A stretch of 64,000 bases of DNA from Acidimicrobiia bacterium UBA2766 (GTDB lineage: Bacteria > Actinomycetota > Acidimicrobiia > UBA2766), in contig DEIU01000102.1 of assembly GCA_002352645.1 (NCBI GenBank), positions 22,761 through 86,760 on the forward strand. Direction: 5' to 3'. The notes under the pieces are model-generated. The model was given only the letters and a program-made list of their open reading frames with translations, was not told the origin of the DNA and made no database searches. This document shows positions 17,091-36,206 of the stretch, in pieces (position 1 is the stretch's first letter; each line of letters opens with the position of its first letter). Position numbers and translations under genes: made by a program.

Positions 17091-17317
17091 CGGTGCAGAG
17101 TACCGTACTTGTGAACGAAGGAACGCGTTCGCGTGTTTACTTTTTGTGTAGCACGCAAAGATTTGTGCATATTGCCTTTCTTTAGGAGCTTTTTGTGTGC
17201 TGTCTATTCGACAGGGTATTTGTGGCAAGCAAATGATGCTTGGTGAAGGCGACGACGTAAAAGCCGTGCCCGAGAACGCCTGTGAGAGTAAAAGTTTGTG
17301 TTTTTGAGGAGTGTGTG

Positions 17318-17971
17318 ATGCTTGTCGGGATTTTGGGAGGAACAGGTCCAGCGGGAAAAGGTGTGGGATATCGCTGTGCTTTAGCAGGACATGACGTGTT
17401 TTTAGGATCACGTGATATCGAGCGTGCAGAAAAAAGTGCGGAAGAACTTTCTCACAGTGTGCTGGTCGGAACGATATCTGGCGCTCGCAATGAGGACGTC
17501 GTAGGGAAAGCCGACCTGATTGTGCTGGCGGTACCCTGGCAGGGGGCGGTGACGACGGCAGAAGGCTTTGAGCCGCAATTACGGGGAAAAGTTCTTGTTT
17601 CCATGGTGAATGCCATCGCGTTTCATGGGGGGAGGCCTGAACCGCTTTTGCCTGCCTCAGGTTCTATTGCGGTGCGTCTGCAATCCCGCCTTCCTGAAGT
17701 GCGGGTCATCGCTGCGATGCACCATCTTCCTGCCCGAGTGATGCTCGATAGCTCTGCTGTTCCTGATTTTGATGTGCTCATTGCCGGAGACGATGACTCC
17801 GCGATAAAAATAGTGAAAGAACTGGTGAATTCAGTAGCGGGATTGCGTGCCGTAGAGGCCGGTCAGTTGCAGAATGCCACTGCCCTTGAAGCGCTGACCC
17901 CTGTGTTGATCGACATCAACATGCGTTATAAAGCGCGTAGTGGTGTGCGTATCACTGGTTTGGAACTCTGA
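17318..17971 (+). CDS. NADP oxidoreductase, coenzyme-F420-dependent family (FNO/Npd-like Rossmann protein)
   Basis: MLVGILGGTGPAGKG dinucleotide-binding motif. ATG at 17318 with GAGGAG 8 nt upstream. Confidence 0.65.
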   Translation: MLVGILGGTGPAGKGVGYRCALAGHDVFLGSRDIERAEKSAEELSHSVLVGTISGARNEDVVGKADLIVLAVPWQGAVTTAEGFEPQLRGKVLVSMVNAIAFHGGRPEPLLPASGSIAVRLQSRLPEVRVIAAMHHLPARVMLDSSAVPDFDVLIAGDDDSAIKIVKELVNSVAGLRAVEAGQLQNATALEALTPVLIDINMRYKARSGVRITGLEL

Positions 17972-20472: not shown

Positions 20473-20520
20473 CGTAAGCGGTTCGAAGGCGGTTGCATTC
20501 GAAGGCGGTTGCAACGGAAG
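20473..20520. promoter_or_regulatory. two adjacent copies of a 16-bp direct repeat (TTCGAAGGCGGTTGCA) about 260 bp upstream of pstS
   Basis: Read directly: ggttcgaaggcggttgcattcgaaggcggttgcaacg. Candidate response-regulator (Pho-box-like) site in the proS/pstS divergent region. Confidence 0.4.
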
Positions 20521-20779: not shown

Positions 20780-21895
20780 ATGAGGCTACGACAACATATC
20801 AGTGACGATGCCAGTTCCGGCGATGACAACGCTACAACTGCATCTCAAGTTTTTCCTTCTTCTCTCTCCTCTCGCGCAAAGTGGGCGCGCCGCCGTCGTT
20901 TTACGGCGTTGACCTGTGCTGCTGCGCTGTTCCTCGCTGCCTGTGGTGATGACGATGACGCGGAAAATGGTACAGGGAGTGACGGTAACCTGAGTAACGG
21001 GTTTGGGTCGATTAACATTTCTGGGTCCTCTACGGTGGAACCTATTTCCTCCTTGGTGGCTGAGGGCTTCCAAGGACAAGTTGAGAATTTGGCGATTGCC
21101 GTGAATGGGCCGGGAACCGGCGATGGTTTCGAGGTTTTCTGCAATGGTGAAACCGATATCTCGGACGCTTCCCGTCCTATCAAGGATGCTGAAAAAGAAG
21201 CCTGTGAGAAAAATGGCGTCAGCTATGTTGAGCTCAAGGTTGGTATAGACGGGATTAGCGTGCTTACCTCCCCGGAGAATGACGCTGTCTCCTGCTTGGG
21301 CTACGAAGATCTCTACGCGCTGACCAGCATGGAAGCTACAGGCATGAAAAACTGGTCCGAGGCGCAGGATCTGGCGGAAGAGCTGGGTTCCCGTCACACT
21401 CCTTACCCCGACGCCAAGTTGTTCATTACGGGACCAGGCGAAGAGTCAGGGACCTTTGATACTTTTGTAGAGTTTGTCATAGAAGACTTTGCGGAAGACC
21501 GGGGTCAGGAAGCCATTACTCGCCCTGACTACGAGGCCCTTCCCAATGACAATGTCATTATACAGGGGGTTGCGAATGAGACGACTTCTCTTGGTTGGGT
21601 GGGTTTCGCGTTCTTTTCGGAGAACAAAGAGTCTGTGAAGGCAATTGAGGTCGATGGTGGAGATGGCATCTGTGTCGCGCCAACTCCTGCCACGATTTCT
21701 GCTGGGACTTATCCCTTGTCCCGCCCTCTTTTCATCTATGTCAACACCGACAAGGCGGCAAAGAATGAAACTCTTACCCAGTTCGTCGACTACTACCTGA
21801 GCGACGAGGGTATCGCGAATGTCACGAACGCAGGTTATGTGATGCTCGAAGACAGTGCCTTGAATGAGACACGGACTGTATGGGAAAGCCGTTGA
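20780..21895 (+). CDS. pstS: phosphate ABC transporter substrate-binding lipoprotein
   Basis: Lipobox (FLAAC), then PstS-family fold (SGSSTV..., GTYPLSRPLFIY). The long N-terminal leader suggests the real start may be later. Confidence 0.85.
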   Translation: MRLRQHISDDASSGDDNATTASQVFPSSLSSRAKWARRRRFTALTCAAALFLAACGDDDDAENGTGSDGNLSNGFGSINISGSSTVEPISSLVAEGFQGQVENLAIAVNGPGTGDGFEVFCNGETDISDASRPIKDAEKEACEKNGVSYVELKVGIDGISVLTSPENDAVSCLGYEDLYALTSMEATGMKNWSEAQDLAEELGSRHTPYPDAKLFITGPGEESGTFDTFVEFVIEDFAEDRGQEAITRPDYEALPNDNVIIQGVANETTSLGWVGFAFFSENKESVKAIEVDGGDGICVAPTPATISAGTYPLSRPLFIYVNTDKAAKNETLTQFVDYYLSDEGIANVTNAGYVMLEDSALNETRTVWESR

Positions 21896-21925
21896 CGGCT
21901 TCCTGAAAAGAAGAAAGGTATTTGC

Positions 21926-22873
21926 ATGGACGACTCTTCGTCGTCATCCATGCCCGGTGTACTGACGGTCACCGATTTTATCGGTGACCGTCGACGCCTG
22001 CGACAGGACAAAACAGTGCGCGGTCTTTTCTTGGGCGCGTCTGTTCTGTCTTTGGGGATCAGCGCTCTTATCGTGATCTCTCTTGCGGGAGAGGCTCTGA
22101 CTTTTCTTCGCCAGATCGAACTGTCGCAGCTCACCGATATTGGGTGGTTTCCGCGTCGTGGGATGTTCGATGTGCCAACTCTTTTAGCGGGCACGTTCCT
22201 TGTCACCGGGCTCGCTATGTTTGTTGCCATCCCTCTTGGTTTGGGGTCGGCGGTATATCTCAGCGAATATGCATCTCCCCGAGTGCGTACCGTGGTCAAG
22301 CCGGCTTTGGAAGTGCTGGCCGGTATCCCCAGTGTGGTTTTGGGTTTTTTCGCGTTTACGGTTCTCACTCCCGGACTGATACAGCGGATTTGGTCTGATG
22401 CCGGAGCGTTCAGCCTCTTGTCGGCTGCGCTCGGGATTGGCCTGCTTGCCATACCTCTGGTGGCTTCTGTTTCTGAGGATGCCCTGCACTCTGTGCCAGA
22501 TTCATTACGGGAAGCCTCCTACGGGATTGGGGCAAGCAAATTTACGACAGTGACTCGAGTAGTGATACCGGCTGCAGTGTCAGGAATTGTGGGCTCCTGC
22601 ATCGTGGCAGGTTCTCGTGCTTTGGGTGAGACCATGGTGGTTGCTCTGGCCGCAGGCGGTTCAGGTGGGCACCTCTTCACTACTGACGTTTTTAATTCAG
22701 GTTTGACGATGACCGCTGCGATGGCGTCGCTTGCCACTGGAACCGACGCGGTGAAGGGTTCTGCTGCAGCCTTCCAAAGCCTGTTTTTCGTGGGTTTTTT
22801 GCTCTTTGTGATGACCTTTGTTGTGAACCTGATTGCGGACAGGTTCGTGCGTCGAGTGCGGCAAAGGTATTGA
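21926..22873 (+). CDS. pstC: phosphate ABC transporter permease
   Basis: 6-TMS permease with EAA-type loop (LREASYGIGASKFTT). Confidence 0.85.
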   Translation: MDDSSSSSMPGVLTVTDFIGDRRRLRQDKTVRGLFLGASVLSLGISALIVISLAGEALTFLRQIELSQLTDIGWFPRRGMFDVPTLLAGTFLVTGLAMFVAIPLGLGSAVYLSEYASPRVRTVVKPALEVLAGIPSVVLGFFAFTVLTPGLIQRIWSDAGAFSLLSAALGIGLLAIPLVASVSEDALHSVPDSLREASYGIGASKFTTVTRVVIPAAVSGIVGSCIVAGSRALGETMVVALAAGGSGGHLFTTDVFNSGLTMTAAMASLATGTDAVKGSAAAFQSLFFVGFLLFVMTFVVNLIADRFVRRVRQRY

Positions 22874-22930
22874 GATGGTGTGGAGCGTCCTGGAAGGAAC
22901 GGATAGCGTGATCCCGGGAAGAGACCTCTG

Positions 22931-23893
22931 ATGGCAGAATCCTATTCAGTGCCTAGGCCGGATGTCCCGATGCCACAAACAAGAGAAAGCAAGGCGCGTA
23001 CAGCTCTTACGAGAGTGGGCTTTGACTTCAAAGGCCACGGCTTCAGGGGCTTGCTTTCTGCTTCGGTTGGTCTTTCGCTTTTTGCACTTTTCTTCCTGCT
23101 CTACGGTGTGACCAGTGACGGTATTCCCGTACTCGCCGAGCGCGGATGGGATTTTCTTTCGTCTCCTCTTTCCGCCGATCCCAGTCGAACCGGCGTATGG
23201 CAGGGCCTGAAGGGGACCATACAGCTTGTCGTTTTCATTTTGGTATTTGCGGTTCCTGTAGGAATGGCCTCTGCGGTCTATCTTGAGGAATACGCTGAAG
23301 ATACTTGGTTTACTCGCTTTGTATCTCTCAATATTCGGAACCTGGCTGGTGTGCCGTCAGTGGTCTACGGGATTTTGGGGCTTTCTGTTTTTGTGAAATT
23401 CCTTGGTGATTTCACAGGAGGAAGAAGCGTCATATCGGCAGGGTTCACCTTGTCGATTCTTGTGCTCCCGCTTGTCATTATTGCTGCGATGGAGGCTTTG
23501 CGTGCTGTGCCACAAAGCCATCGCGAAGGAGCGTTTGGGCTTGGTGCCACGCGCTGGGAAGTGATCCGTCACCAGGTGATCCCCTACGCGATGCCGGGAA
23601 TTGCCACCGGAATTGTCTTGTCGGTGCTGCGGGCATTGGGAGAGACTGCTCCGCTTATTTTGGTTGGTGCAGTAAGTGGTTTCTTTACCACGGGTGACCA
23701 GAACGTTGTTGAGGATTTGCAAGGACCCTTTACTGCTCTCCCCATGCTTATCTTTAGTTGGGCCCGACAGCCGAAAGCTGAGTTCGAGGAGCTTACTTCC
23801 GCGGTTATCGTAGTAACGCTCTTTGTACTTCTTCTCTCAACACTGGCTGCAGTTTTGGTGCGTAACCGATTCGAGAAGAGGAGGCAAGGGTGA
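22931..23893 (+). CDS. pstA: phosphate ABC transporter permease
   Basis: Permease with [14 protein letters not shown] motif. Its stop overlaps the pstB start. Confidence 0.85.
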
Positions 23894-24747
23894 TAACGAA
23901 CTCCCCTGTTGCTGAGCTTGACGTTATTGAACACGCGGGTCTTTCTGCTTTACCCCAGCCGAACCCTGTTGTGTTTGAGATAGGTAACTTATCTGTTTTT
24001 TATGGTGATGCGCTCGCGGTCAAGGACGTGACCATGAACGTTCGCGAGCATCAGATTACCGCTTTCATCGGCCCGTCTGGCTGCGGGAAGAGTACGGTTT
24101 TGCGTTGTTTAAATCGTATGAATGATCTGATCGATGGGGCACGCGTACAAGGTATGGTCTCCTACCATAATGTTGACTTGTACGATCCTGCGGTGCAGGC
24201 AGTTGAAGTCCGTCGACGTATTGGTATGGTTTTTCAGAAGCCCAATCCGTTCCCGAAGTCAGTTTTTGAGAATATTGCCTTTGGTCCAAGACTGAACGGC
24301 ATCAAGAAAAAGAGCGACTTGTCCGGCATCGTCGAGCAGGCGTTACGCAAAGCTGTGCTTTGGGATGAAGTAAAAGATCGCCTGAAAGACTCTGCTTTTG
24401 GTCTTTCCGGTGGGCAGCAACAGCGCCTCTGCATTGCGAGGGCACTTGCTGTTGAACCCGATGTGCTTTTAATGGATGAGCCATGTTCTGCGCTCGACCC
24501 CATTGCCACAGGGCGGATTGAAGAACTTCTTCAAGAAATTGCGTCCACTTACACCATCGTTATTGTGACGCACAACATGGGGCAGGCACGACGCATTAGC
24601 GAACAGACCGCCTTTTTTCTTACCCGTCTTGACGAGGTATCAGACTCGCGTTACGGGGTGCTGGTGGAGTACGATAACACAGAAAAAGTGTTTACTGACC
24701 CATCAGATAAACGCACGTTACAGTATATAATGGGTCAAGTGGGGTGA
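23890..24747 (+). CDS. pstB: phosphate ABC transporter ATP-binding protein
   Basis: Walker [10 protein letters not shown]. Signature LSGGQQQRL. Walker B LLMDEP. Confidence 0.9.
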
Positions 24748-25198
24748 ATGGAGAAGAGGTAGACTCTCTTTTTCCTCTGTCTTTTCGCTGTGTTGCACTC
24801 GGAGTATTGCCGGTTGCTCTGATGCGATGCGACTCTTCTTGAGAACCGTGATCTTCTCGGGAGAGCTTGCTTGTGATAGGGCAGGTTTGTGAATTTCGTG
24901 GTCTCTTGCCGGGAAGAGGCCGGTAGCATGTGCAAGATGGCTTTGGGTGGACAATCCGTCGATATTGCTTGATAATACTGGGGCGACACTGGTAAAAGGC
25001 CTATGCGCGCAAGAGACAGACGTGCAGAATTGGTGGTGTGGCGGTCGGAGCAGCTGCTGCACTCTGCATATGAAAATAGCTGTTTTCTTGTGCGAGAGCG
25101 GTCCCTTTTGAGAAGGTGCATTGCCTATCGTCGCCGTTTGTATGTGCGATTGGCAGTGCGGTGACACTTGCTCCCCTGTTGAATGGCTTTTGCAGAGA

Positions 25199-26698
25199 AT
25201 GCCGGAAGATTTCACTCCCTCCAATACGCCTCTTGCGGAGCGCTTGCAGGCTGTTGATCGTGACCTGAAACACATGGCAGAAATTGTCGTTGTTGCTGTA
25301 GGGCGCGCGACAGAAGCCCTTCTGGCGAACGATGTGGATCGTGCACAAACCGTTATTGAGGAAGACGATATCCTCGACGCGTACTCTTTGGAATACGAAC
25401 GTTCCTGCATGGATCTTCTCGTGTGCAGTCACTTGGATGAAATAGGCGTACGCTCAGTTGTTACTGCTTTGAAAATGAATAGCGAGATCGAACGCAGTGG
25501 TGATCTTGCTGTCAATATTTGCAAAGGTGTTGGGCGGATTCAGGGTGCGTACATTAACCGGCAAATCCGCAATTTTTTACGCCATATGGGCGAGGAAGCC
25601 GGGGTTCTCTTCTCCCAGGCCATCAAGTTTTATGTAGAGAGGGACGAGGCGAAGGCCGCGACGCTGACTGACCTCGATGATCGTCTCGATGATCTGCATG
25701 ACCAATATATTGAAGTTGTTATTCGTACTGTTTCGCGGGGTGAACTCAACGCGCAACAGGGACTGCAACTGGCTGTACTCGGGCGATTCTATGAGCGTAT
25801 CGGTGATCATGCGGTCAATATTGCGGAGGGAGTGAGGCACCTATTCCCGGAATCGGAGATTTCCAGGGAAAGAGAAAAGCGTTTCGTTCCTTCCAAGGAA
25901 AATAATATGAAACGGGTGCTCGCACGGCGTATTCCGGGAGTCGCAGTCATTGAAGCTGCACAACAAGAACGCCGGATTGATGCTATTCGTCGTGATTTTG
26001 TGGTGAATGTCAGCCATGAACTCAAAACGCCAGTCGGGGCAATTGCCTTGCTCGCAGAAACCTTGTATGACGAGGAAGACATTAAGGTCCGTCGCCGTTT
26101 GCTGCATCGGATTACTGACGAGGCGCATCGAGTCAGTGAGACGATTGATGACCTTATTGATCTCGGACGCTTGGAAGAAGAAAAACAACCGCGCCATGTG
26201 TCGGTTTTTGTCTACGACATTGTGTCGAGTGGCTTGAATCATGTGTATGCATTCGCTACTCAAAAGGAAGTCGAAATCCAGATCCAAGAGTTTCCTGCCG
26301 GTTTGAGTGTGAGAGGAGATGCCCGTCAATTAGGGCGCGCGCTCTCCAACCTTTTCGATAACGCAGTCAAATACTCAGATCCTGGACATATTGTGACGGT
26401 GGGCGCGAAACAAGTAGGAGACAAGGTTGATATTCGGGTGCAAGATCAGGGAATCGGAATTCCCGCCCGCGACATAGAACGTATTTTTGAACGTTTCTAC
26501 AGGGTCGACCGCGCGCGTAGTCGGGCGACCGGAGGTACGGGCCTTGGTCTTGCCATTGTGCGCCATGTGATGACAAATCACAATGGTCGGGTACTTGTGG
26601 AATCAAGTGAAGGAGAGGGATCTGCTTTCACGCTCCAGCTTCCAAGTGCCGGAGAACACGCGGAGACGCCCGAAAGACAAACGCGTCATAGTGAGTGA
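25199..26698 (+). CDS. cytoplasmic histidine kinase with N-terminal PhoU domain (PhoU-HisKA-HATPase_c fusion)
   Basis: Two PhoU repeats (ERSGDLAVNICK and ERIGDHAVNIAE), then H-box VSHELKTP, N/G boxes (NLFDNAVKYS, GGTGLGLAIV). No predicted TM helix. Start uncertain (TTG 25121, ATG 25142, ATG 25199). Confidence 0.8.
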   Translation: MPEDFTPSNTPLAERLQAVDRDLKHMAEIVVVAVGRATEALLANDVDRAQTVIEEDDILDAYSLEYERSCMDLLVCSHLDEIGVRSVVTALKMNSEIERSGDLAVNICKGVGRIQGAYINRQIRNFLRHMGEEAGVLFSQAIKFYVERDEAKAATLTDLDDRLDDLHDQYIEVVIRTVSRGELNAQQGLQLAVLGRFYERIGDHAVNIAEGVRHLFPESEISREREKRFVPSKENNMKRVLARRIPGVAVIEAAQQERRIDAIRRDFVVNVSHELKTPVGAIALLAETLYDEEDIKVRRRLLHRITDEAHRVSETIDDLIDLGRLEEEKQPRHVSVFVYDIVSSGLNHVYAFATQKEVEIQIQEFPAGLSVRGDARQLGRALSNLFDNAVKYSDPGHIVTVGAKQVGDKVDIRVQDQGIGIPARDIERIFERFYRVDRARSRATGGTGLGLAIVRHVMTNHNGRVLVESSEGEGSAFTLQLPSAGEHAETPERQTRHSE

Positions 26699-27507
26699 AA
26701 CGTCAGAACTGGGAGGGAGAAAAGACTGTGGCCCAACGACATGCTATTACTGTTCTTGCAGTTGACGACGAAGAATCCTTTTTGGAAGCACTTGGTCTCG
26801 GGCTTGAACGCGAGGGGTTTGAAGTGCATGTCGCGAGAGACGGGGTGGAAGCTCTGGAGTCTTTTGCGAGAGTGGAACCAGACATCGTGCTACTTGATGT
26901 GATGTTACCGCGTTTGTCAGGAATTGACGTTTGTCAGGAATTGCGCAAAGAAACAAGCGTGCCGATCATCATGCTGAGCGCAAAAGGAGAGGAGATCGAC
27001 GCGGTCGTGGGTCTTGAAGTAGGGGCCGATGATTACATCACGAAACCCTACCGTTTGCGGGAACTTGTCGCCCGTATTCGAGCTGCCTTGCGCCGCACGC
27101 GTGTGACAGGTGCTGAGTCTGGCGCGTCGCTGCACGCAGGTCTTCTCACATCTGGGGACATTTGTTTGGATCCAGATCGGTATGAGGTGACCGTGCGAGA
27201 CGAAGCCCTCTCTTTGCCCTTGAAAGAGTTTGAACTCCTTAAAGTACTCATGGAGAACGTGGGTCATGTGCTGACACGGCAGCGTTTGATTGAATGTGTC
27301 TGGGGATTTGACTATGTAGGGGACACAAAAACCCTTGACGTACACATCAAGCGGTTGCGGTCTCGCGTCGAAAAAGACCCGGCCAACCCTGAGGCAATTA
27401 TTACGATTCGCGGCTTGGGGTACAAGCTGGTCGACACATCCCTCAGTGGAACTCCTCGCAGAATAATGGGGCCTGTGGAGGAGAAGAAAGAACAGTTGGG
27501 CTTGTGA
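26695..27507 (+). CDS. OmpR-family response regulator (RegX3/PhoB-like)
   Basis: REC domain (LAVDDEE ... LLDVMLP ... SAKGEE). Winged-helix trans_reg_C (TIRGLGYKL). Start overlaps the kinase stop. Confidence 0.9.
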   Translation: MKRQNWEGEKTVAQRHAITVLAVDDEESFLEALGLGLEREGFEVHVARDGVEALESFARVEPDIVLLDVMLPRLSGIDVCQELRKETSVPIIMLSAKGEEIDAVVGLEVGADDYITKPYRLRELVARIRAALRRTRVTGAESGASLHAGLLTSGDICLDPDRYEVTVRDEALSLPLKEFELLKVLMENVGHVLTRQRLIECVWGFDYVGDTKTLDVHIKRLRSRVEKDPANPEAIITIRGLGYKLVDTSLSGTPRRIMGPVEEKKEQLGL

Positions 27508-28834: not shown

Positions 28835-31420
28835 TCACCCTTGGTGGAGGGTGGGATGGGGCTGTCGGTCCAGGAGTTGTTGCAAAGTATGCTGCGGGCC
28901 GAGAGGTGCCCAGATCTTCTTGTACTGCTCAGCTGTTTCTGTGGGCAGTGCTTGCACTTTGAGTATTTCGCTGGCCAGAGCCACTTGAAGAAGGCCGAAA
29001 CGGTGTTCTGATTTGTTCCAGATATCTACTGCGGCGAGGAGAGAGCTTTGCTTTTTTTCGGTTGTTGTTGCAAGCAGAGCCGTGATGAGGTGCTCGTTTG
29101 CTTGTATGGACGGGCGACGGATTTTCTTTGCGAGTTTTGCGTGTTCTCTCGCATGCGTGCGGGGGTCTTTTCCTGTTGCTGCCCTTGCTAAAACGAGGAC
29201 GGGGAGAGTGCGGACGAGCAGGTCGATAGATCCGATTTTGCGGAAGCCCTCTGCTGCCTGTGTGAAAGCTATCTGCGCGGTTTCGAAATCTCGTTTGAGC
29301 AGAGCGGTTGTTCCATGCCACCAGGTTGTGAGGGATCGGTCAAAAGGAGTGGATTGTTGGCGCAGGGCGTTTTCGCTGCGTGCAAGTGCTGTGTTTGCTG
29401 CGCTGGTGTTATCGCGTGCTGTTGCTATTGCAGTGGCGGCTGCCCAGATAGGGCCCATTTCGTGATTTGGCAGGTTCCGTTTGACTTCTGCTGCGGTTGC
29501 GATCGCGATTTCCATTCGCGTCCACTCGCAGGAGAGAAAGGCCGCTATGGTCTCTGTGCGTACTATGCGGGGGATTATGTCGGTAAGGCCGCGATTGTCT
29601 ACCCAGGTCTGCAGCTCTTGCAACGAAGTCAGCGCGTCCTGGAACTGATCTTGTGCAATTTGGGCAAGGCTAAGGGAGAGGAGCGGAGGAAAGTCCAAAA
29701 AGTCCTCTCCGAGTTCGCGCCAGTACTGTGTTGCCTGCACTGCTGTGCGAATGGAGTCGGGATGTAGGGTGACCGCTTCTACCATGGCCTGGTTCGCGAG
29801 AGAGGAAGCGATGCCGGCCTTGTCTTGTACTTTTCGTGCGGATGTGACTGCGAGAAGCGCTGCATTTCTTGCCTCTTGCACGTGTCCCAATGCCAAAAGG
29901 GTTTCGGCTTTCCCGCGTTCGGCGTCGATTCCCTGGCAAGACTCGAAAACGGTGAGAGATTTTTTGATTTTCCCGGTTCGTTGCAGAGAACGGGCCAATC
30001 CGAGTTTTCCTCGTTCTGTGTAACCGGGATCGAACTCACGCGTTGCTCTTTGAACGATGGCCTGGAAGATGCTGTAAGCATCGTTGTTCATGCCCAGGTA
30101 GAGCAGGGCTTCCGCCTTCACCGTCAAACATTTGTGCTGAAGTGTGAGGGATGGATGTAAGTTGAGTGCTTTATCCGAGAAATCCACTGCGATGGCAGGT
30201 CTTCCCTGATGAATCGCTGTTTCAGCAGCTTCAATCGCGAGTTCTACAACTGCATTGCTCCAGGGATGTTTCGTGTCGACGCCCGCGAGGGCGTGTGGCG
30301 CGATTTCTATTGGTGCCGCGTCCAATAGGGAGAGCAGGGTCGCAATGCGCCGGTGGAAGTCCTGCAGAATTGCCTCCGGCATGGCGGTTCTCACCATTTC
30401 GGGAAGCAGAGGATTGGCGAATGCCAGGGTGTTCCTCCTGGGGTTCTCGGTGTTTTCCTGGGTGCTTTCCAGGATGAGCTGGGCGTCATGTAGCTCTTGC
30501 AAAGGAAGGGCATCATCAGGGTCGAGGCCGGCCGCAAGCGCGCAAAAACGCGGACTTGCGCGACATCCGCTCATTGCTGCGACGCGCAGAAATGAGAGGG
30601 CATTGGGGGGAAGCCGTTCAATGCGCCAGAGCAGGAGAGAACTGAGGGTTGGGGCAGTTTCCAGCGTGAAATCGCCGGCATGCTTTGCAGCTTCTGCAAG
30701 TTCTTGTAAGAACAGGGGATTCCCCCCTGATCTCCCGGCGATTTGAGCGAGTCGTTTTTCGGTCGCTTGTCCTCTGGTGAGTTCATTGAGAAAGATGATG
30801 CTTTCGTCAAAGATGAGAGGTTCGATGGGCAGGACGATGGCATTGGTTTGTTCGAGGATCTGGTCGATCACCATATGATCGGGTCTGGTGGTAAGAAGAG
30901 TGAGGAGCGTTCTGTGCGCGCTTCGTCTTACCGTGTGGGCGATGATGGGGAGTAGCGCCTGGCGTGGGTCTTCTGTGGCGTCGAGGATCAGGATGGTGGT
31001 GCGAACCGCAGTTATTTGGGCGATAAGCTCGTCAAAAAGACGAAGAATTTCTCGGTGTTTTGCACCGCTGCGTACTGCTTCTGCGAGAACTGTGGCCTGA
31101 AAAGATGCCTTATTTTCCCGGATCGTGTGCGTGTGGCTGTTTACAAGGTCGCCTAAAGCAGCGTGAGGCTCTGGGATGTGCGTATCTGTCGGACAGAGCT
31201 GGAGCACGGCAGCGTCTTGTGCGTATGCCTCAATAAAATGAGTGAGGAGGTGGGTTTTCCCGATGCCTGCCTCGCCGACGAGCAAGACCGTGGCTGACTG
31301 TTGCGAGTGTGCCGTTTCTAGCGCACCTTCTAAGACGCGGAGTTCTGTCTGGCGGAAACGGAAATGGTCAGCGCTCGTCACATTCTTTAATTCTCGGTCA
31401 TGACCCTGAGGTCCCTGCAA
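28835..31420 (-). CDS. AAA_16-type ATPase with long TPR-like C-terminal region (LAL/STAND-like, no HTH seen)
   Basis: Walker A VGEAGIGKTHLL near the N-terminus, Walker B-like ILILDA, then about 600 aa of helical repeats. No LuxR-type HTH at the C-terminus. Confidence 0.6.
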   Translation of the reverse strand: MQGPQGHDRELKNVTSADHFRFRQTELRVLEGALETAHSQQSATVLLVGEAGIGKTHLLTHFIEAYAQDAAVLQLCPTDTHIPEPHAALGDLVNSHTHTIRENKASFQATVLAEAVRSGAKHREILRLFDELIAQITAVRTTILILDATEDPRQALLPIIAHTVRRSAHRTLLTLLTTRPDHMVIDQILEQTNAIVLPIEPLIFDESIIFLNELTRGQATEKRLAQIAGRSGGNPLFLQELAEAAKHAGDFTLETAPTLSSLLLWRIERLPPNALSFLRVAAMSGCRASPRFCALAAGLDPDDALPLQELHDAQLILESTQENTENPRRNTLAFANPLLPEMVRTAMPEAILQDFHRRIATLLSLLDAAPIEIAPHALAGVDTKHPWSNAVVELAIEAAETAIHQGRPAIAVDFSDKALNLHPSLTLQHKCLTVKAEALLYLGMNNDAYSIFQAIVQRATREFDPGYTERGKLGLARSLQRTGKIKKSLTVFESCQGIDAERGKAETLLALGHVQEARNAALLAVTSARKVQDKAGIASSLANQAMVEAVTLHPDSIRTAVQATQYWRELGEDFLDFPPLLSLSLAQIAQDQFQDALTSLQELQTWVDNRGLTDIIPRIVRTETIAAFLSCEWTRMEIAIATAAEVKRNLPNHEMGPIWAAATAIATARDNTSAANTALARSENALRQQSTPFDRSLTTWWHGTTALLKRDFETAQIAFTQAAEGFRKIGSIDLLVRTLPVLVLARAATGKDPRTHAREHAKLAKKIRRPSIQANEHLITALLATTTEKKQSSLLAAVDIWNKSEHRFGLLQVALASEILKVQALPTETAEQYKKIWAPLGPQHTLQQLLDRQPHPTLHQG

Positions 31421-32080: not shown

Positions 32081-32690
32081 GTTGGGACGCGGGAAGGAGC
32101 CGGGGGAAAACCATGCATGAAAATAGGCATTTACGTGGTGTTCTGGCGGCTTCGCGCGAGATTCGTGAGGATTTGCATATGCAGTCTCGAGGCAAGGGAA
32201 AGGGAAAAAGGCAAAGAGCGGAGGGAATCAGGGAGGCAAGACCTTTGTGAAAGTCCTAGGATGGTGCCGCGATTCATTTTTGGCTTTACGAGCGAAACCT
32301 TGTGAGTTGCAGGTTTTTTCTGCCACCTTCCTTCTTCTGTTTGCCCTCCTTGGTTGTCCTGGGCACTAGTTCCCGGTATGCCAGATGAGGTTATTGCAGG
32401 CGCATGGTTTGTGCGGTAACTTTTGTTTTGGTTGAGGTGCTTGCAAAAGGGCAGGAGAGTGGGGGAGAGTTCACTTTCTTTGGCTTTCGTGCAGTGTGGC
32501 CCAACCGAAACGGTGTTTTTTGCGAAATACCTCATAATTGGTGACTGGCGCAGACGTTTCCCAGACTCTTTTATTGAGTTGGGGGAGATGGCGACATAGG
32601 GCCTGGCATATGTTTGGCAAGTTGCACTGCTATTAATGGCAGAACGCATTGCTTGTCACTTATGGGGGTCTTTGACATTCCGGAGCGACC

Positions 32691-34706
32691 ATGGCTGAAC
32701 ACTTCGATGCCCTTCTTGAGAGCATCTCCGGCGCACCTGTTTTGAATCGGGGTGACCTTGCACTCGCTTTTCTGGACGGGCAGAAATCAGACAGGCTTGC
32801 CGAAGTGAAGGATTCGCTCGCGGTCAAACCGTCTCCAAAGATCCCACCTCGGTATGAATCTGAAATTCGTACTTGGCTTGCGCGCGCGGCCATAGAAGGA
32901 TTGTCTCCTGGCGGCGAAAAGGAGGAGGCGACGCAAGCCCGCATTCAGGCATACTCTGCTGTTCATCTTGACCCTCATAATACCGACGCCATTGGTGCCC
33001 TTGACGCTGCCCTTTTGTTTTTGCAGGGCGACGTGCGAATGAATACTTGGAGGGCCCTTTCCCGCAGCTATCCCGAAGTACAGTCGGTACGGAACGCGGC
33101 AGAAGCCGCGGGAGTTGTGCCGCCTGATCCTGCGGCAGTGAAAGCGGCAAGACGGCGGGCACCGCGTCGGAAACCCACTTCTTCCGGCGGGCAAGATCAC
33201 AAAGGAGACTCTTCACATGGGGGAGGGCAGGGCGGTCAAAAGCGCAAACGGCGTCCTCGTGCCAGCGGACTGGCCAGGATTCTTCCCCTGTATGAGCCTG
33301 ATCCAGTGAAGGCTGACCGCCTCGCGGTGATTAACCTGGCCATGGGAGTCGAATGGACGCCCGCGGCTTCTCCGTTGAGTGAACTCGACCCTCTGAGCTG
33401 GGCGACCCGCCGTATGGCCGGCGAAGAAGTTGGAGATCCTCCGCGCCAGGCAGTCGCTACTGCTGATTTTGTCTTGCTCACAATGGGCATGTTGTCTCGC
33501 GGAGAGGAACCAGGTCCGCGCTACGGTCACATTATCAAGCGCCTCAAGGGTCATCCCGCAGTTGTCCTGTGGGCAACGAAACGTCAGCTTGATGCGGGAG
33601 ATTTCTCTGGTGCCCGCAAGGCGTTTGGGCGTGTCAACCTCGCTGATTACCCCGTTTTTGCCGATGAGGTCTCTGCCCTCTCAGAGACGATGGCGATTGT
33701 GAATGGTGACGCTGACATCGGATGGCGCCGTTGGGAATCTGGGGAATTGCCCGCTGCTCTTCGTGCTCCTCTGGCTGAAGCCTTGATCGCGGCAGGTCGT
33801 GAGACGCAGGCCGATGAAGTCATGGGTTTGCCAGAAGTGCTGGCTGCTTCTCTGGATGACAGAGCCCTGCTTGAGCTGCGTTTTGACTTGATGTTTGTCG
33901 ACGGATACAGCACAAGAGCGCTGGAGCAGGCATTCCGTCTTGTGGAATTGGGACCTTTCTCCAGGCGAGCGGTCGGTCGTCTCTGGTTGGCTCTCGCGTT
34001 CTCGGGTCGTCAGGATGAGCTGCTGGGCCGTGTTGACGAAGACGCAGAACGTGTCGGTGTGCCGATGGAAGAGATCGTCGACTCAGTCAGGTCTATTTTG
34101 TCGCGTCGCGTCGCGCGTGTGACGCAAAAGTTGACGGAAAAGGCAACAGAGACACGAGCTTCTTTGCAGCATCTTGCAAAAGGCAAGACCATTCGCAATG
34201 CTGAGCTTTTCACGCAGGCTGTTGCCACGGCTCGCTCAGGGCTGGATGAACTGCAACCCATGACAGAAGTGCTTGGGCTCAAGAGCAGTGAATATCCGCA
34301 GGCTTTGGAAGATCTCCTGACGCTTCTTGCTGTGGGCACAGGACGTACGGTTTCTGTAGAGGGCGATAAAGTACTTCTTTTTGGTGAATCGTCAACTTCA
34401 GATCACCCTGTTCTCAAATCTTTTACTGCCCCCGCCCAGGAAATTTGTGCGCGTAGTGCCACCATCAATGAGATGGCCAAGCGTGCCCTGCTCTCCCTCG
34501 ATAGCGCGGTTGAAGAGAGTGGACGTGTCGATCTTGCACGGCGTCGCCTTGAGGAGAGGGTCTCAAAACAGGCACGCCAAGCTGCTGATCTCTTGAACGC
34601 AATCGTGGTTTCTTTTGATCTTTCCTCCTCGCCTCCAACCCTGGAAGAGGCGCTTGAGAGTAGTGAGACCGATGCTGAGGTGAAAGACGAAGACGAAGAC
34701 GAGTAA
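32691..34706 (+). CDS. hypothetical protein, 671 aa, no recognisable motif
   Basis: Long ORF with coding-like composition. Gly/Lys/Arg-rich segment near aa 180-200. Acidic C-terminus. Confidence 0.5.
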   Translation: MAEHFDALLESISGAPVLNRGDLALAFLDGQKSDRLAEVKDSLAVKPSPKIPPRYESEIRTWLARAAIEGLSPGGEKEEATQARIQAYSAVHLDPHNTDAIGALDAALLFLQGDVRMNTWRALSRSYPEVQSVRNAAEAAGVVPPDPAAVKAARRRAPRRKPTSSGGQDHKGDSSHGGGQGGQKRKRRPRASGLARILPLYEPDPVKADRLAVINLAMGVEWTPAASPLSELDPLSWATRRMAGEEVGDPPRQAVATADFVLLTMGMLSRGEEPGPRYGHIIKRLKGHPAVVLWATKRQLDAGDFSGARKAFGRVNLADYPVFADEVSALSETMAIVNGDADIGWRRWESGELPAALRAPLAEALIAAGRETQADEVMGLPEVLAASLDDRALLELRFDLMFVDGYSTRALEQAFRLVELGPFSRRAVGRLWLALAFSGRQDELLGRVDEDAERVGVPMEEIVDSVRSILSRRVARVTQKLTEKATETRASLQHLAKGKTIRNAELFTQAVATARSGLDELQPMTEVLGLKSSEYPQALEDLLTLLAVGTGRTVSVEGDKVLLFGESSTSDHPVLKSFTAPAQEICARSATINEMAKRALLSLDSAVEESGRVDLARRRLEERVSKQARQAADLLNAIVVSFDLSSSPPTLEEALESSETDAEVKDEDEDE

Positions 34707-34886
34707 CTCGCGCCCGCCGGGACTGGGCTGGGAACGACACCTGGGCCAGTTCGCTTGAGGAGAAAAGCGCTGTGAAGTCAACATGAGGCGTGCTCGCGCA
34801 GAAGGAGATGCAATAGCAGTGGCGAGCACGGCGATAAGACGCTGGAGAGCGCATCGCCCGGAGGGTGCATCACAGAAGGGAAGAGC

Positions 34887-36092
34887 TTGAGAGAGCGAGC
34901 CACGCCGGCAGATCTTCTTTATGCGTACAGTCCGGATGAACTCGATCCCTGGGTGGCGGGTTTGGAGCTCGATCTCGAGAGAGATGTTGGCGAGGCAAAC
35001 GTGCGGCGTGCCCTGGAAGAGGCCTTGACCTTGCACCCCCGGTGTGGCGCGTACTTGAAAGGAAAACAATGGAGAAGGCGGCAACCATCTGACGCGTATG
35101 CCATGTTACCATTGGGAGACGATGAAGACTGGGATGACTTGCGGCCCGCTCTTCTTGACACCTGGTTTGACCCTGAAGGCGATCCTGGATTGCGTGTCGC
35201 CTATGAAGATGGGCACCTTTTTTTGGCTTGGGCACATGGTGTGACCGATGTCGCCGGAGCTGTGGGGTTTGTGTCGAGTCTGATGCATACCCTTGCCGGA
35301 AACGCTGTATTTTCTCCTGCGCAAGGGGCGACCGCAACGGACCTGCAGAAGAGTTTGCGCACTCAAATGTTGCGTCCCTCAGTTTTGTGGGAGTTTGCGC
35401 GTCGTGTACGCGGTTCTTCTGCGAAAGCAGCGGGGTTTCCCTGGCCTCTGACTTCCGCTGTTGCCGCGGCGAGTGATGCCGCAGTCTGGGTTCTTGACAA
35501 TGCCGAATTTGCGAAAATTCTTGCCCGGGCAGCCCAGGAGAATGGCAGCTTCACGGGGGCATTGACCGCTGCTTTGGCAGGCATGTGTGTAGACCGGTGT
35601 GCCCCGGGAGAGACCGCTACGGTCTACATTCCGCTGAATTTGCGTCCTTCGCATGCCCAGTGGTGGCCATTGGGCAACTGGGTCGGTAGTGTGGAGATCT
35701 TGTGTGAAGGGCCTGTGACCATCGCTCAGGTGCAGGCGCGCCTTACGCGGGCTCTCGAAGGCCACAATCGGTATGCACCATTACTCACAAATCTTGTGCG
35801 GTCAAAGCTCCCGCGCCGCGCGCGCACACAGCTTGCAACACGGCGCTCTCCTGATTTGTCCACCCCTCCTGCCCGAACGATTTGTTTGAACAATCTTGGC
35901 AAGGTTCCCAAGGAAATGTTGCCGGAGGTGGAGCGAGCAGTCTTCCATGCCCCAACTGGGGTGAAATCTCCGACCCTTTCTGTGCTGAGCGTGGGAGATG
36001 TGACCACTTTTAACATGCGTGTTCGCCGGCACCAAGGGGGTCTTGCGCTTGCGCGAGAGCTGATGGAAGAACTGAAAACGCGTGTGCTGTGA
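34887..36092 (+). CDS. hypothetical protein, 401 aa; possible CoA-dependent acyltransferase-superfamily relative (degenerate HxxxD, AHGVTDVAG)
   Basis: Motif position (about aa 128) and length resemble WS/DGAT, PapA and condensation-domain proteins, but only one His is present. TTG start. Confidence 0.4.
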   Translation: MRERATPADLLYAYSPDELDPWVAGLELDLERDVGEANVRRALEEALTLHPRCGAYLKGKQWRRRQPSDAYAMLPLGDDEDWDDLRPALLDTWFDPEGDPGLRVAYEDGHLFLAWAHGVTDVAGAVGFVSSLMHTLAGNAVFSPAQGATATDLQKSLRTQMLRPSVLWEFARRVRGSSAKAAGFPWPLTSAVAAASDAAVWVLDNAEFAKILARAAQENGSFTGALTAALAGMCVDRCAPGETATVYIPLNLRPSHAQWWPLGNWVGSVEILCEGPVTIAQVQARLTRALEGHNRYAPLLTNLVRSKLPRRARTQLATRRSPDLSTPPARTICLNNLGKVPKEMLPEVERAVFHAPTGVKSPTLSVLSVGDVTTFNMRVRRHQGGLALARELMEELKTRVL

Positions 36093-36206
36093 GGGTGTGA
36101 TCTTGAGGCGAGGGAAGAACAGGGCGAAGAAAAACCCTCTCGTGTCCGGCGACAGTGTCGGATACGCGTCCAGGTATATGTGTACGCGTATTTTTAGAGG
36201 AGTTTT

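What the first reader, a model, noticed from the sequence alone, without database searches (positions are those of the whole stretch)
25121..27507. PhoU domain fused directly to a soluble histidine kinase, downstream of pstSCAB and with no separate phoU
In the classical Pho system, PhoU is a separate protein that relays the PstSCAB state to a membrane-bound PhoR/SenX3. Here the pst operon is followed by a kinase whose entire sensor region is a two-repeat PhoU fold (ERSGDLAVNICK / ERIGDHAVNIAE). It has no TM helices and is translationally coupled to an OmpR-type regulator. No stand-alone phoU follows pstB. That implies a hard-wired PstB-PhoU-kinase signalling route, an architecture that is not textbook.
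Basis: partly seen in the sequence, partly recalled or inferred. Interest (0 to 1): 0.7.

Follow-up and report, generated by a model that had tools for sequence, protein, structure and literature searches.

The report
PhoU fused to phosphate sensor kinase
In this uncultured actinobacterium, the accessory protein PhoU is fused to the kinase it normally controls, giving one soluble protein encoded next to the phosphate importer genes; the fusion is real, common in this lineage and apparently undescribed, and it is a variant of the known phosphate-sensing pathway, not a new one.

Summary
The gene at 25199-26698 (longest ORF starts at 25121) encodes a 499-aa protein with two PhoU repeats, HisKA and HATPase_c, and no hydrophobic segment long enough to span a membrane. 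It lies downstream of pstSCAB and upstream of an OmpR-type regulator. The 64-kb window has no other PhoU or histidine kinase.

It is not a one-off. The 120 best database clusters all share the architecture, at 46-51% identity, and come mostly from Acidimicrobiia MAGs, where PGAP names them only "PhoU". Related genomes carry pstSCAB-phoU-kinase-regulator as separate genes, and that kinase has one transmembrane helix and a PAS domain, like SenX3. Junction alignments suggest an in-frame deletion joined a complete PhoU to the kinase and removed the transmembrane helix and nearly all of PAS. PhoU-PAS-kinase forms also exist.

The most likely function is the Pho-regulon sensor, with PhoU as a tethered input that switches the kinase between kinase and phosphatase states.

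- M. smegmatis experiments show PhoU plus phosphate controls SenX3 without Pst.
- One fused locus has no adjacent pst genes.
- One relative also has a distant second PhoU beside a Na/Pi cotransporter.

Eight literature searches found no description of the fusion. Verdict: new variant of a known kind, moderate interest.

The parts
20780..21895 (+). pstS, the phosphate ABC transporter substrate-binding protein
   Evidence: PBP_like_2. TIGR02136 scores 215.3 bits against a 206.6 cutoff.
21926..22873 (+). pstC, permease
   Evidence: TIGR02138 scores 226.8 bits against a 196.45 cutoff.
22931..23893 (+). pstA, permease
   Evidence: TIGR00974 scores 247.4 bits against a 193.45 cutoff.
23890..24747 (+). 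pstB, the ATPase subunit; overlaps pstA by 4 nt
   Evidence: TIGR00972 scores 383 bits against a 343.2 cutoff.
24748..25198 (+). 451-nt spacer between pstB and the fused gene. It holds a hairpin followed by a T-rich stretch at 24750-24774 and one sigma-70-like site at 24948-24976 (TGGACA-17-GATAAT).
   Evidence: Consensus scan only. No Rfam family matched. The 128-aa minus-strand ORF 24735-25121 has no Pfam hit. In other fused loci the spacer is 0-100 nt.
25199..26698 (+). Fused phoU-histidine kinase gene, 499 aa. The longest ORF starts at TTG 25121 and would give 525 aa.
   Evidence: Pfam finds PhoU x2, HisKA and HATPase_c. It is the exact database protein P0001. The family alignment supports the ATG start.
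25232..25837 (+). PhoU module, aa 12-213: a six-helix bundle made of two three-helix repeats, with ERSGD at aa 98-102 and RFYERIGDH at aa 196-204
   Evidence: AF2 pLDDT is mostly above 90 here. The best solved relative is Aquifex PhoU 1t72, E 9.4e-21. The alpha6 motif is present in 119 of 120 family members.
25838..25963 (+). Linker, aa 214-255: the PhoU C-terminal tail, a variable spacer, then IPGVAVIEAAQQ, which aligns with the last beta-strand of the PAS domain in unfused relatives
   Evidence: pLDDT is below 50 for aa 220-263. See the junction alignment.
25964..26179 (+). DHp (HisKA) helical hairpin, aa 256-327. The phospho-acceptor His273 (codon 26015-26017) sits in SHELKTP, an HExxT motif.
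   Evidence: Pfam HisKA, AF2 helices 256-291 and 295-327, and invariant family columns H273, E274 and T277.
26198..26647 (+). Catalytic ATP-binding domain (HATPase_c), aa 334-483, with N, G1, F and G2 boxes
   Evidence: Pfam. Invariant N384, N388, D416, G420, F430-D437 and G445-L451. Foldseek top hits are the HK853 and WalK/YycG cores.
26695..27507 (+). OmpR/PhoB-family response regulator. The start is GTG 26695, overlapping the kinase stop, or more likely GTG 26728.
   Evidence: Response_reg and Trans_reg_C. It scores 280-320 bits against the regulators downstream of the pst-phoU-kinase genes in relatives.

Best explanation
This is the phosphate-regulon sensor of an uncultured actinobacterium. 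It is a SenX3/PhoR-type bifunctional histidine kinase whose membrane anchor and PAS domain have been replaced by a complete PhoU protein.

Origin: it arose from the gene order pstSCAB-phoU-kinase-regulator that related Acidimicrobiia still have. An in-frame deletion fused phoU to the kinase just before its DHp helix.

Proposed mechanism: the PhoU module reports phosphate sufficiency. When phosphate is plentiful, PhoU docks on the DHp/CA core of the kinase dimer through a flexible tether of about 40 residues and holds it in the phosphatase state, so the regulator stays unphosphorylated. When phosphate runs low, PhoU lets go. The kinase then autophosphorylates on His273 and phosphorylates the OmpR-type regulator, which switches on pstSCAB and other scavenging genes.

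I favour the PhoU module reading cytoplasmic phosphate itself, with any contact to PstB as an optional modulator. On this view the covalent tether does the job that PAS-mediated docking does in unfused systems.

Shown here: domain composition, no predicted membrane segment, intact catalytic and phosphatase motifs, family conservation, synteny, and the unfused relatives. Inferred: the signal, its direction, the intramolecular docking, and the regulator's targets.
For: - Architecture and motifs.
- No membrane segment.
- The kinase core scores best against the phosphate-regulon kinase models PnpS and PhoR.
- In a neighbour-joining tree, the fused proteins form one clade among the unfused, pst-phoU-linked kinases of Acidimicrobiia.
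- At least nine related loci carry phoU and then a kinase as adjacent separate genes, followed by the regulator where the contig extends that far. Five of them show pstB (L018 the full pstSCAB) just upstream. Those kinases have one N-terminal transmembrane helix and a PAS domain.
- The junction alignment shows a full PhoU, including its C-terminal tail, joined to a remnant of the last PAS strand and then the DHp helix.
- PhoU-PAS-kinase forms without a transmembrane helix also exist, P0128 and P0131.
- pstB lies immediately upstream in 8 of 9 distinct fused loci, and an OmpR-type regulator lies downstream in all 9.
- Published work on the unfused system: SenX3 works without its membrane anchor, Pst is dispensable for sensing, and PhoU1 plus Pi drives SenX3 to phosphatase in vitro. 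The alpha6 motif RxxERxxD(R/H) is the proposed Pi site (PMC12301784), and it is invariant here. An E. coli docking and covariation model puts PhoU against both the PAS and CA domains (PMC4423584).
- L005 keeps the fusion and regulator with no adjacent pst genes.
Against: - No experiment exists on any member of this family.
- In both E. coli and M. smegmatis, the PAS domain is required for PhoU to act, and it is missing here. PhoU must therefore act differently, and the tether idea is my inference.
- The AF2 model gives no confident arrangement between the domains (pTM 0.48, linker pLDDT below 50).
- Conserved adjacency to pstB fits a PstB-dependent mechanism equally well.
- No convincing Pho-box was found upstream of pstS or the kinase gene.
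- The rest of the genome was not available, so another Pho sensor or PhoU cannot be ruled out.
- The tree is neighbour-joining without support values.
Confidence: 0.6

Rival explanations
1. The soluble kinase is recruited to the membrane only through PhoU binding to PstB. The conformational or ATPase state of PstSCAB is the signal, and PhoU passes it directly to the attached kinase. Without PstB the protein cannot sense phosphate.
For: pstB is immediately upstream in 8 of 9 fused loci, with a gap of 0-20 nt in most. E. coli PhoU binds PstB as well as PhoR, and signalling there needs PstSCAB (PMC4423584). Losing the kinase's own membrane anchor is tolerable if PhoU-PstB binding supplies localisation.
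Against: The adjacency is inherited from the ancestral operon and is also expected from simple co-regulation. In the closest studied actinobacterial system, Pst is not required and PhoU plus Pi is enough in vitro (PMC12301784). L005 has the fusion beside a Na/Pi cotransporter gene and has no pst genes within 8 kb. In the window a 451-nt spacer with a promoter-like site separates pstB from the gene.
Confidence: 0.3
2. The PhoU module mainly acts as a brake on transport. It restrains PstSCAB import, which is the second reported role of PhoU. The attached kinase would then be controlled by something else, or be largely constitutive, and the fusion would only ensure co-expression at 1:1.
For: PhoU proteins are reported to limit Pst import in E. 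coli, S. pneumoniae and S. meliloti, as summarised in PMC13170248. The PhoU module is very strongly conserved, including surfaces not obviously needed to contact the kinase.
Against: The kinase has no other input domain. The distance from PhoU alpha6 to the phospho-acceptor histidine is tightly conserved at 64-75 residues, median 65, in 117 members, which suggests functional coupling. The two roles are not mutually exclusive.
Confidence: 0.07
3. The fusion is an artefact: a frameshift, a mis-assembly or a pseudogene that merges separate phoU and kinase genes.
For: The source is a metagenome assembly. Adjacent phoU and kinase genes are the norm in relatives.
Against: The identical protein occurs on 9 contigs from independent ENA, JGI and Logan samples. 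More than 120 database clusters share the architecture, the length (477-500 aa) and the junction. The transmembrane helix and PAS sequence are absent, not merely out of frame. Catalytic motifs are invariant.
Confidence: 0.01

Closest known systems
Mycobacterium smegmatis / M. tuberculosis SenX3-RegX3 with PhoU1/PhoU2 (PhoY1/PhoY2) and Pst
   Same: Same phylum. The kinase core is SenX3-like, with HisKA carrying HExxT plus HATPase_c. The partner is an OmpR-family regulator. PhoU has two repeats and the conserved alpha6 motif RxxERxxD(H/R). The published finding that membrane anchoring is dispensable, and that PhoU plus Pi is enough to switch SenX3 to phosphatase (PMC12301784), matches a soluble fused design.
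   Different: There PhoU is a separate protein, with two redundant paralogues, and the kinase has a transmembrane helix and a PAS domain that is essential for sensing. Here PhoU is covalently attached, and the helix and PAS are gone except for a remnant of about 10 residues.
Escherichia coli / Salmonella PstSCAB-PhoU-PhoR-PhoB
   Same: Same components and logic: a Pst importer, PhoU as the negative input, a bifunctional kinase and an OmpR-family regulator, with phoU placed after pstB. The fusion is a natural Rosetta-stone confirmation of the direct PhoU-PhoR contact shown by two-hybrid assays (PMC4423584).
   Different: PhoR has two transmembrane helices and a PAS domain that docks PhoU. phoBR is unlinked to pst. 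The NCBIfam PhoR and PhoB equivalog cutoffs are not reached here (234.5 against 334.2, and 209.3 against 296.2).
Unfused pstSCAB-phoU-kinase-regulator operons of other Acidimicrobiia (for example L018 on chromosome OZ224042, L009, L014, L027, L059)
   Same: The phoU, kinase and regulator are orthologous and in the same order. The PhoU parts score 230-260 bits and the kinase cores 250-325 bits against the fused-family HMMs.
   Different: They are two separate genes, and the kinase keeps one N-terminal transmembrane helix and PAS. These look like the ancestral state.
NptA-PhoU (Na/Pi cotransporter with a C-terminal PhoU-like domain, S. aureus) and other PhoU-domain fusions
   Same: A precedent for a PhoU-type module covalently fused to one of its partners in phosphate homeostasis (PMC13170248).
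   Different: There the fusion partner is the transporter. Here it is the signalling kinase. The PhoU clade differs too: the stand-alone PhoU beside Na_Pi_cotrans in L084 is barely similar to the fused one.
Streptomyces PhoR-PhoP with divergently transcribed phoU
   Same: An actinobacterial Pho two-component system with phoU directly next to the kinase operon, seen in about 30 loci from the genome scan.
   Different: phoU is on the opposite strand, so a fusion is impossible without an inversion. The kinase is membrane-anchored.

Membership tests
PhoU (PF01895 x2; TIGR02135 phosphate signaling complex protein PhoU) | Two PhoU repeats forming a six-helix bundle | tested here: met
   Pfam PhoU in 2 stretches, E 3.2e-32. 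AF2 shows six long helices over aa 12-213 with pLDDT mostly above 90. Solved PhoU structures 1t72, 1xwm, 2i0m, 4q25 and 1sum are hit by sequence.
PhoU (PF01895 x2; TIGR02135 phosphate signaling complex protein PhoU) | Reaches the curated equivalog score | tested here: not met
   TIGR02135 scores 119.6 bits against a 130.25 cutoff, covering profile positions 3-203 of 212. It is a near miss.
PhoU (PF01895 x2; TIGR02135 phosphate signaling complex protein PhoU) | Conserved acidic/basic motifs in alpha3 and alpha6 (E/DxxxD; RxxERxxD[H/R]) | tested here: met
   ERSGD at aa 98-102 and RFYERIGDH at aa 196-204. The latter is found in 119 of 120 family members.
PhoU (PF01895 x2; TIGR02135 phosphate signaling complex protein PhoU) | Stand-alone protein of about 210-250 aa with no other domain | tested here: not met
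   The protein is 499 aa with HisKA and HATPase_c attached.
PhoU (PF01895 x2; TIGR02135 phosphate signaling complex protein PhoU) | Binds PstB and/or phosphate or metal ions, and represses the Pho regulon | not testable with these tools
   Needs biochemistry or genetics.
PhoR / SenX3 / PnpS phosphate-regulon sensor kinases | HisKA with a phospho-acceptor His in an HExxT phosphatase motif, plus HATPase_c with N, G1, F and G2 boxes | tested here: met
   (H273, E274, T277, N384, N388, D416, G420, F430-D437 and G445-L451 are invariant). Structurally it matches the HK853 and WalK cores.
PhoR / SenX3 / PnpS phosphate-regulon sensor kinases | N-terminal membrane anchor | tested here: not met
   The highest KD19 value is 1.26. 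Unfused relatives reach 2.3-3.3 in their first 25-30 residues.
PhoR / SenX3 / PnpS phosphate-regulon sensor kinases | Cytoplasmic PAS domain between the anchor and DHp | tested here: not met
   No PAS family hit in Pfam. Only about 10 residues align with the last PAS strand. Unfused relatives hit PAS, PAS_4 or PAS_7.
PhoR / SenX3 / PnpS phosphate-regulon sensor kinases | Reaches the curated equivalog scores | tested here: not met
   PnpS 249.3 against 400; phoR_proteo 234.5 against 334.2; PRK11006 155.8 against 390. These are still the top-ranked models, matched over the core only.
PhoR / SenX3 / PnpS phosphate-regulon sensor kinases | Genomic linkage to pst/phoU and a cognate OmpR-family regulator; nearest relatives are Pho kinases | tested here: met
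   Synteny. Neighbour-joining tree.
Uncharacterised PhoU-HisKA-HATPase_c fusion family of Acidimicrobiia-like Actinomycetota (named 'PhoU' by PGAP, about 480 aa) | Full-length collinear similarity with the same domain order | tested here: met
   All of the 120 best clusters carry PF01895, PF00512 and PF02518. They are 477-500 aa long, with 46-51% identity over 94-98% of the query. Mean column identity in A1 is 70%.
Uncharacterised PhoU-HisKA-HATPase_c fusion family of Acidimicrobiia-like Actinomycetota (named 'PhoU' by PGAP, about 480 aa) | Same fusion junction: PhoU tail, short spacer, xGxAVIxxxxxxRRIDAIRRDFVxNVSHELKTP | tested here: met
   The window protein lacks the 4-residue 'xxGW' of the tail and has a slightly longer spacer. 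The alpha6-His to phospho-His distance is 68, against a family median of 65.
Uncharacterised PhoU-HisKA-HATPase_c fusion family of Acidimicrobiia-like Actinomycetota (named 'PhoU' by PGAP, about 480 aa) | Same gene neighbourhood: pstB upstream, OmpR-type regulator downstream | tested here: met
   The window, L004, L084, L085, L086 and L089 (the PAS-retaining variants L087 and L088 share it); the exception is L005.
OmpR/PhoB-family response regulators (the downstream gene) | Receiver domain plus a winged-helix Trans_reg_C domain | tested here: met
   Response_reg E 4.2e-30 and Trans_reg_C E 1.7e-26.
OmpR/PhoB-family response regulators (the downstream gene) | Reaches the PhoB equivalog score | tested here: not met
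   TIGR02154 scores 209.3 against 296.2. YycF, MtrA and RpaB models score higher, and all are below their cutoffs. Assigning it to the Pho regulon therefore rests on synteny.

The most novel reading that the evidence does not exclude
The protein is a self-contained, single-polypeptide cytoplasmic phosphate sensor. Its PhoU module binds phosphate (or phosphate plus a metal) directly and switches the attached DHp/CA core between kinase and phosphatase, with no PAS domain, no membrane and no transporter involved. That would make it the minimal natural form of Pho signalling. It would also be direct evolutionary evidence that, at least in Actinomycetota, PhoU is the phosphate receptor and the PAS domain of SenX3/PhoR is mainly a docking adaptor.
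Probability: 0.35. Interest if true: 0.65.

Novelty: new variant of a known kind. Interest (0 to 1): 0.45.

Why it matters
What PhoU senses, and how it switches PhoR/SenX3 between kinase and phosphatase, has been debated for decades. The competing views are a relay from the transporter and direct sensing of cytoplasmic phosphate.

This natural fusion, together with PhoU-PAS-kinase forms and unfused relatives in the same lineage, is independent evolutionary evidence for three points: PhoU acts directly on the kinase, and both the membrane anchor and the PAS domain can be dispensed with once PhoU is tethered.

In practice it offers a soluble, single-chain, 1:1 system. That is far easier to purify, assay with and without phosphate or PstB, and solve structurally than the membrane complex of E. 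coli. It could also be the basis for a compact phosphate biosensor.

It also exposes an annotation problem. Hundreds of kinases of about 480 aa in public databases are named only "phosphate signaling complex protein PhoU". Surveys that filter on the PhoU-only architecture therefore miss them, and surveys that look for a membrane PhoR could score these genomes as lacking a Pho sensor.

Tried and rejected
- Rfam on the whole window at gathering thresholds gave 0 hits. Nothing RNA-like explains the 451-nt spacer between pstB and the kinase gene.
- Pho-box search: repeat scans of the regions upstream of pstS, the kinase gene and the phosphodiesterase gene found only one perfect tandem 16-mer upstream of pstS. 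It has no counterpart at the other promoters and does not have the 11-nt period of known PhoB/PhoP boxes. I do not call it an operator.
It anchored on kinase motifs shared with ordinary PhoR/SenX3, so it sampled only a few fused genomes and did not find the window's own genome. It cannot be used as a census.
- Whole-genome co-occurrence of a second PhoU or a membrane PhoR could not be tested, because only about 20-kb neighbourhoods are retrievable.
- The longer TTG 25121 start would add 26 residues with a Cys-rich stretch (CMCDWQCGDTC), and it has the SD-like sequence GAGAAGG 4 nt upstream. I rejected it as the main model because 119 homologues begin at the position of ATG 25199. All available contigs are identical there, so there is no variation to test whether the extension is coding.
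- I considered and dismissed an assembly or frameshift artefact (see rivals).
- Foldseek on the whole model returned only kinase cores and no full-length structural analogue. The AF2 model gives no usable orientation between domains.
- Eight literature searches for a description of a PhoU-kinase fusion found nothing. The library does not cover most subscription journals, so absence is not proven.
- The label "Gammaproteobacteria" on L005 is probably a binning error. Its locus is syntenic with the Acidimicrobiales loci L084 and L085 (GuaA ... fusion-regulator-UvrD).


Full report
**1. What is in the sequence**

The longest ORF at 25121-26698 (+) translates to 525 aa. Pfam finds two PhoU repeats (E 3.2e-32), HisKA at aa 290-354 and HATPase_c at aa 399-509. 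NCBIfam's full-length PhoU model covers aa 38-238 at 119.6 bits, just below its 130.25 cutoff. The best-scoring kinase models are the phosphate-regulon kinases PnpS and PhoR, matched over the catalytic core only.

The database holds the exact 499-aa protein that starts at ATG 25199 (P0001). The N-termini of 119 homologues align with that start, so I take 25199 as the start. TTG 25121 does have an SD-like GAGAAGG just upstream, so some doubt remains.

The protein has no hydrophobic segment that could span a membrane: the highest KD19 value is 1.26.

Upstream, pstS, pstC, pstA and pstB (20780-24747) all pass their curated cutoffs. Downstream lies an OmpR-type regulator. Its GTG at 26695 overlaps the kinase stop, but GTG 26728 has a much better ribosome-binding site, GGGAGGGAG, 8 nt upstream.

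No second PhoU or histidine kinase exists in the 64 kb. Family HMMs run against the six-frame translation hit only this ORF, and Pfam on the other long ORFs found none.

The locus is not an assembly accident. It occurs on 9 contigs from three independent data sources, and the three I retrieved match the window at 99.98% or better.

**2. It belongs to a large, unnamed family**

All 120 best database clusters (90% identity clusters) have PhoU, HisKA and HATPase_c. They are 477-500 aa long and 46-51% identical to the window protein over 94-98% of its length. Where a source names them, they are MAGs of Acidimicrobiales, Acidimicrobiaceae or Actinomycetota, and PGAP or IMG call them only "phosphate signaling complex protein PhoU".

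I searched 1.84 billion cluster representatives at 50% identity with a profile of the family. Only three were full-length single-stretch matches: P0127, P0129 and the window protein itself. The family is therefore populous but phylogenetically compact, and the window protein is a divergent branch of it.

The window's prolyl-tRNA synthetase is at most 69% identical to anything else. Its named relatives are MAGs of Acidimicrobiia and of Egibacteraceae/Nitriliruptorales. The host is therefore an uncultured, deep-branching member of the Actinomycetota.

**3. Where the fusion came from**

I annotated 80 loci from the genome collection with my own HMMs. It shows three arrangements:
- **Classical actinomycetes** (Streptomyces, Nocardiopsis and others): phoU is transcribed divergently from phoR-phoP.
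- **Many Acidimicrobiia:** phoU and the kinase are adjacent separate genes on one strand in L009, L012, L014, L015, L017, L018, L020, L027 and L059, with the regulator downstream wherever the contig extends that far. pstB lies just upstream in five of them, and L018, a complete chromosome, shows the full pstSCAB.
- **The fused form:** the window, L004 and L005.

The unfused kinases have one N-terminal transmembrane helix (KD19 2.3-3.3) and a PAS domain, which is the SenX3 architecture.

The junction alignment shows what the fused proteins retain:
- the whole of PhoU, including its C-terminal tail (YxVDGWxPE...ERARAR);
- a short variable spacer;
- then RGLAVIDSIAEERRIDAIRRDFVANVSHELKTP, which aligns with the last PAS beta-strand and the helix leading into DHp in the unfused kinases (GAVAVVEDVSERxRLEAVRRDFVANISHELKTP).

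The simplest history is an in-frame deletion that removed the phoU stop codon, the transmembrane helix and nearly all of PAS.

Two further cluster representatives, P0128 (585 aa) and P0131 (577 aa), are PhoU, then a PAS-like region without a transmembrane helix, then the kinase. They sit in the same pstB-...-regulator context. They are either intermediates or independent, smaller deletions.

In a neighbour-joining tree of kinase cores, all the fused proteins sampled (all PAS-less) form one clade among the unfused Acidimicrobiia kinases. The window protein and P0002 are basal in that clade (no support values were computed).

**4. Anatomy of the protein**

AlphaFold2 with the 51-sequence family alignment gave mean pLDDT 78.9. 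The parts are:
- **aa 12-213:** a six-helix PhoU bundle, pLDDT mostly above 90.
- **aa 220-263:** a low-confidence stretch, pLDDT below 50.
- **aa 256-327:** a DHp hairpin.
- **aa 334-483:** an alpha/beta catalytic domain.

pTM is 0.48, so the relative position of the two halves is not predicted.

The PhoU part is most similar in sequence to the solved Aquifex PhoU structure 1t72 (E 9.4e-21). The kinase half matches the HK853 and WalK/YycG structures.

These residues are invariant across the family:
- the alpha6 motif R196-F-Y-E-R-I-G-D-H204;
- the H-box S-H273-E-L-K-T-P, an HExxT motif associated with phosphatase as well as kinase activity (established knowledge of HisKA kinases);
- the N, G1, F and G2 boxes.

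The distance from the alpha6 histidine to the phospho-acceptor histidine is tightly constrained, at 64-75 residues with a median of 65, in 117 members. That argues the two halves work together.

**5. How it most likely works**

In E. coli, PhoU binds PstB and the PAS domain of PhoR. A docking and covariation model also places PhoU against the CA domain, which suggests PhoU restrains CA and favours the phosphatase state (PMC4423584).

In M. smegmatis, the closest studied relative, four results matter (PMC12301784):
- a SenX3 lacking its membrane anchor still senses phosphate;
- Pst is not needed for sensing;
- purified PhoU1 plus Pi shifts SenX3 to phosphatase in vitro;
- the alpha6 motif RxxERxxD(R/H) was proposed as the phosphate site.

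The fused protein fits this picture closely. It has no anchor, it keeps alpha6 intact, and a covalent tether replaces the PAS docking site.

My best explanation, at confidence 0.6, is a Pho-regulon sensor in which the tethered PhoU module holds the kinase in the phosphatase state when phosphate is sufficient and releases it under limitation. I favour PhoU reading cytoplasmic phosphate itself.

The composition, conservation, synteny and evolutionary origin are shown. The signal, its direction and the docking are inferred.

**6.

A strict PstB relay remains possible (0.3). pstB is immediately upstream in 8 of 9 distinct fused loci. That adjacency, however, is ancestral and is also expected from co-regulation.

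L005 argues against it. This locus shares flanking genes with L084 and L085 (GuaA upstream, UvrD downstream) but has no pst genes within 8 kb. Instead it has a divergent Na/Pi cotransporter gene directly upstream of the fusion.

In the window a 451-nt spacer separates pstB from the gene. It contains a hairpin followed by a T-rich stretch and the only sigma-70-like site in the region, which hints at separate transcription.

In L084 (GCA_033344915.1) a separate 219-aa PhoU lies 5.6 kb upstream of the fusion. It sits next to a Na_Pi_cotrans gene and is barely similar to the fused PhoU (E 0.002). It therefore looks like the importer-specific accessory regulators described in PMC13170248, not a replacement for the Pst-type PhoU.

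A "transport brake only" role (0.07) and an artefact (0.01) are unlikely.

**7. Comparison with what is known, and novelty**

Functionally this is the SenX3/PhoR-PhoU-Pst system.

As family membership:
- It meets the structural definition of PhoU but not "stand-alone", and it just misses the equivalog score.
- It meets the catalytic definition of a Pho kinase but fails the membrane-anchor, PAS and equivalog tests.
- It clearly belongs to the unnamed fusion family.

PhoU-like domains fused to a transporter (NptA-PhoU) are known. I found no description of a PhoU fused to the kinase in eight full-text searches, and the 2026 survey of PhoU clades excluded multi-domain proteins by design. InterPro or CDART architecture tables, which probably list this combination, could not be consulted here.

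I rate it a new variant of a known kind. The components and logic are textbook. The covalent wiring and the loss of the anchor and PAS are not.

**8. Verdict**

Interest is 0.45. A Pho-signalling specialist would find the fusion a useful natural experiment and a convenient soluble model, especially given the current dispute over whether PhoU or Pst is the sensor. It is not deeply surprising, it is common in its lineage, and no new biochemical principle has been demonstrated.

The most novel reading still open is a fully self-contained one-protein cytoplasmic phosphate sensor. I give it a probability of about 0.35 and an interest of about 0.65 if true.

Noticed in passing
window 20482-20513 (+), about 270 nt upstream of the pstS ATG: A perfect tandem duplication of a 16-mer, TTCGAAGGCGGTTGCA x2. 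No similar copy lies upstream of the kinase gene or the phosphodiesterase gene. The only other match allowing up to 3 mismatches is inside a coding region at 50085. It could be a regulator site or a simple duplication.
   Followed up: partly
window 8199-13928 (-): A 1909-aa single-chain carboxylase with biotin carboxylase, a biotinyl domain, the ACC_central region and carboxyltransferase. This is the eukaryote-like multidomain acetyl-CoA carboxylase layout, which is unusual for bacteria.
   Followed up: no
window 28835-31420 (-): An 861-aa STAND-type NTPase (AAA_16/NACHT N-terminal domain with TPR-like repeats), two genes downstream of the regulator. Its function is unknown, and it is conserved on all contigs of this population.
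   Followed up: no
window 32131-37011: A run of five ORFs (172, 671, 401, 102 and 149 aa) with no Pfam match at E 1e-5 or better.
   Followed up: no
window 15900-17411 (-): A type I phosphodiesterase / nucleotide pyrophosphatase family protein (PF01663) about 3.4 kb upstream of pstS. It is a plausible phosphate-scavenging member of the same regulon, but no shared promoter motif was found.
   Followed up: partly
window 25121-25198 (+): If translation started at TTG 25121 (SD-like GAGAAGG 4 nt upstream), the kinase would gain a 26-residue extension with a Cys-rich stretch, CMCDWQCGDTC. One database entry (P0122, 525 aa) uses this start. Homologues do not support it.
   Followed up: partly
window 26695-26730 (+): The regulator has two candidate starts. 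GTG 26695 overlaps the kinase stop as GTGA. GTG 26728 is preceded by the strong Shine-Dalgarno sequence GGGAGGGAG, and its product would fit the usual length of OmpR-type regulators better.
   Followed up: partly
L005 6698-9428; L084 3742-5554: In L005 the fused kinase sits beside a divergent Na/Pi cotransporter gene with no pst genes nearby. In L084 a distant stand-alone PhoU paralogue is paired with a Na/Pi cotransporter gene just upstream of pstSCAB and the fusion. L005 is labelled Gammaproteobacteria but is syntenic with Acidimicrobiales loci, so it is probably mis-binned.
   Followed up: partly
P0128 (L087 4047-5804) and P0131 (L088 5013-6746); P0134: Variant fusions exist that keep a PAS-like region but have lost the transmembrane helix (577-585 aa). 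There is also a 396-aa form with only one PhoU repeat joined to the kinase. Each is known from only one or two metagenomic contigs.
   Followed up: partly
window 1-64000: GC skew is positive (0.05-0.20) and AT skew negative in every 2-kb bin across the whole window, whichever strand the genes are on. This fits a single replichore with strong strand asymmetry.
   Followed up: no
window 55454-56431 (+); 45947-48341 (-): A protein that combines a scramblase-family domain (PF03803, mostly eukaryotic) with DUF2510, and two tandem M23-peptidase paralogues.
   Followed up: no
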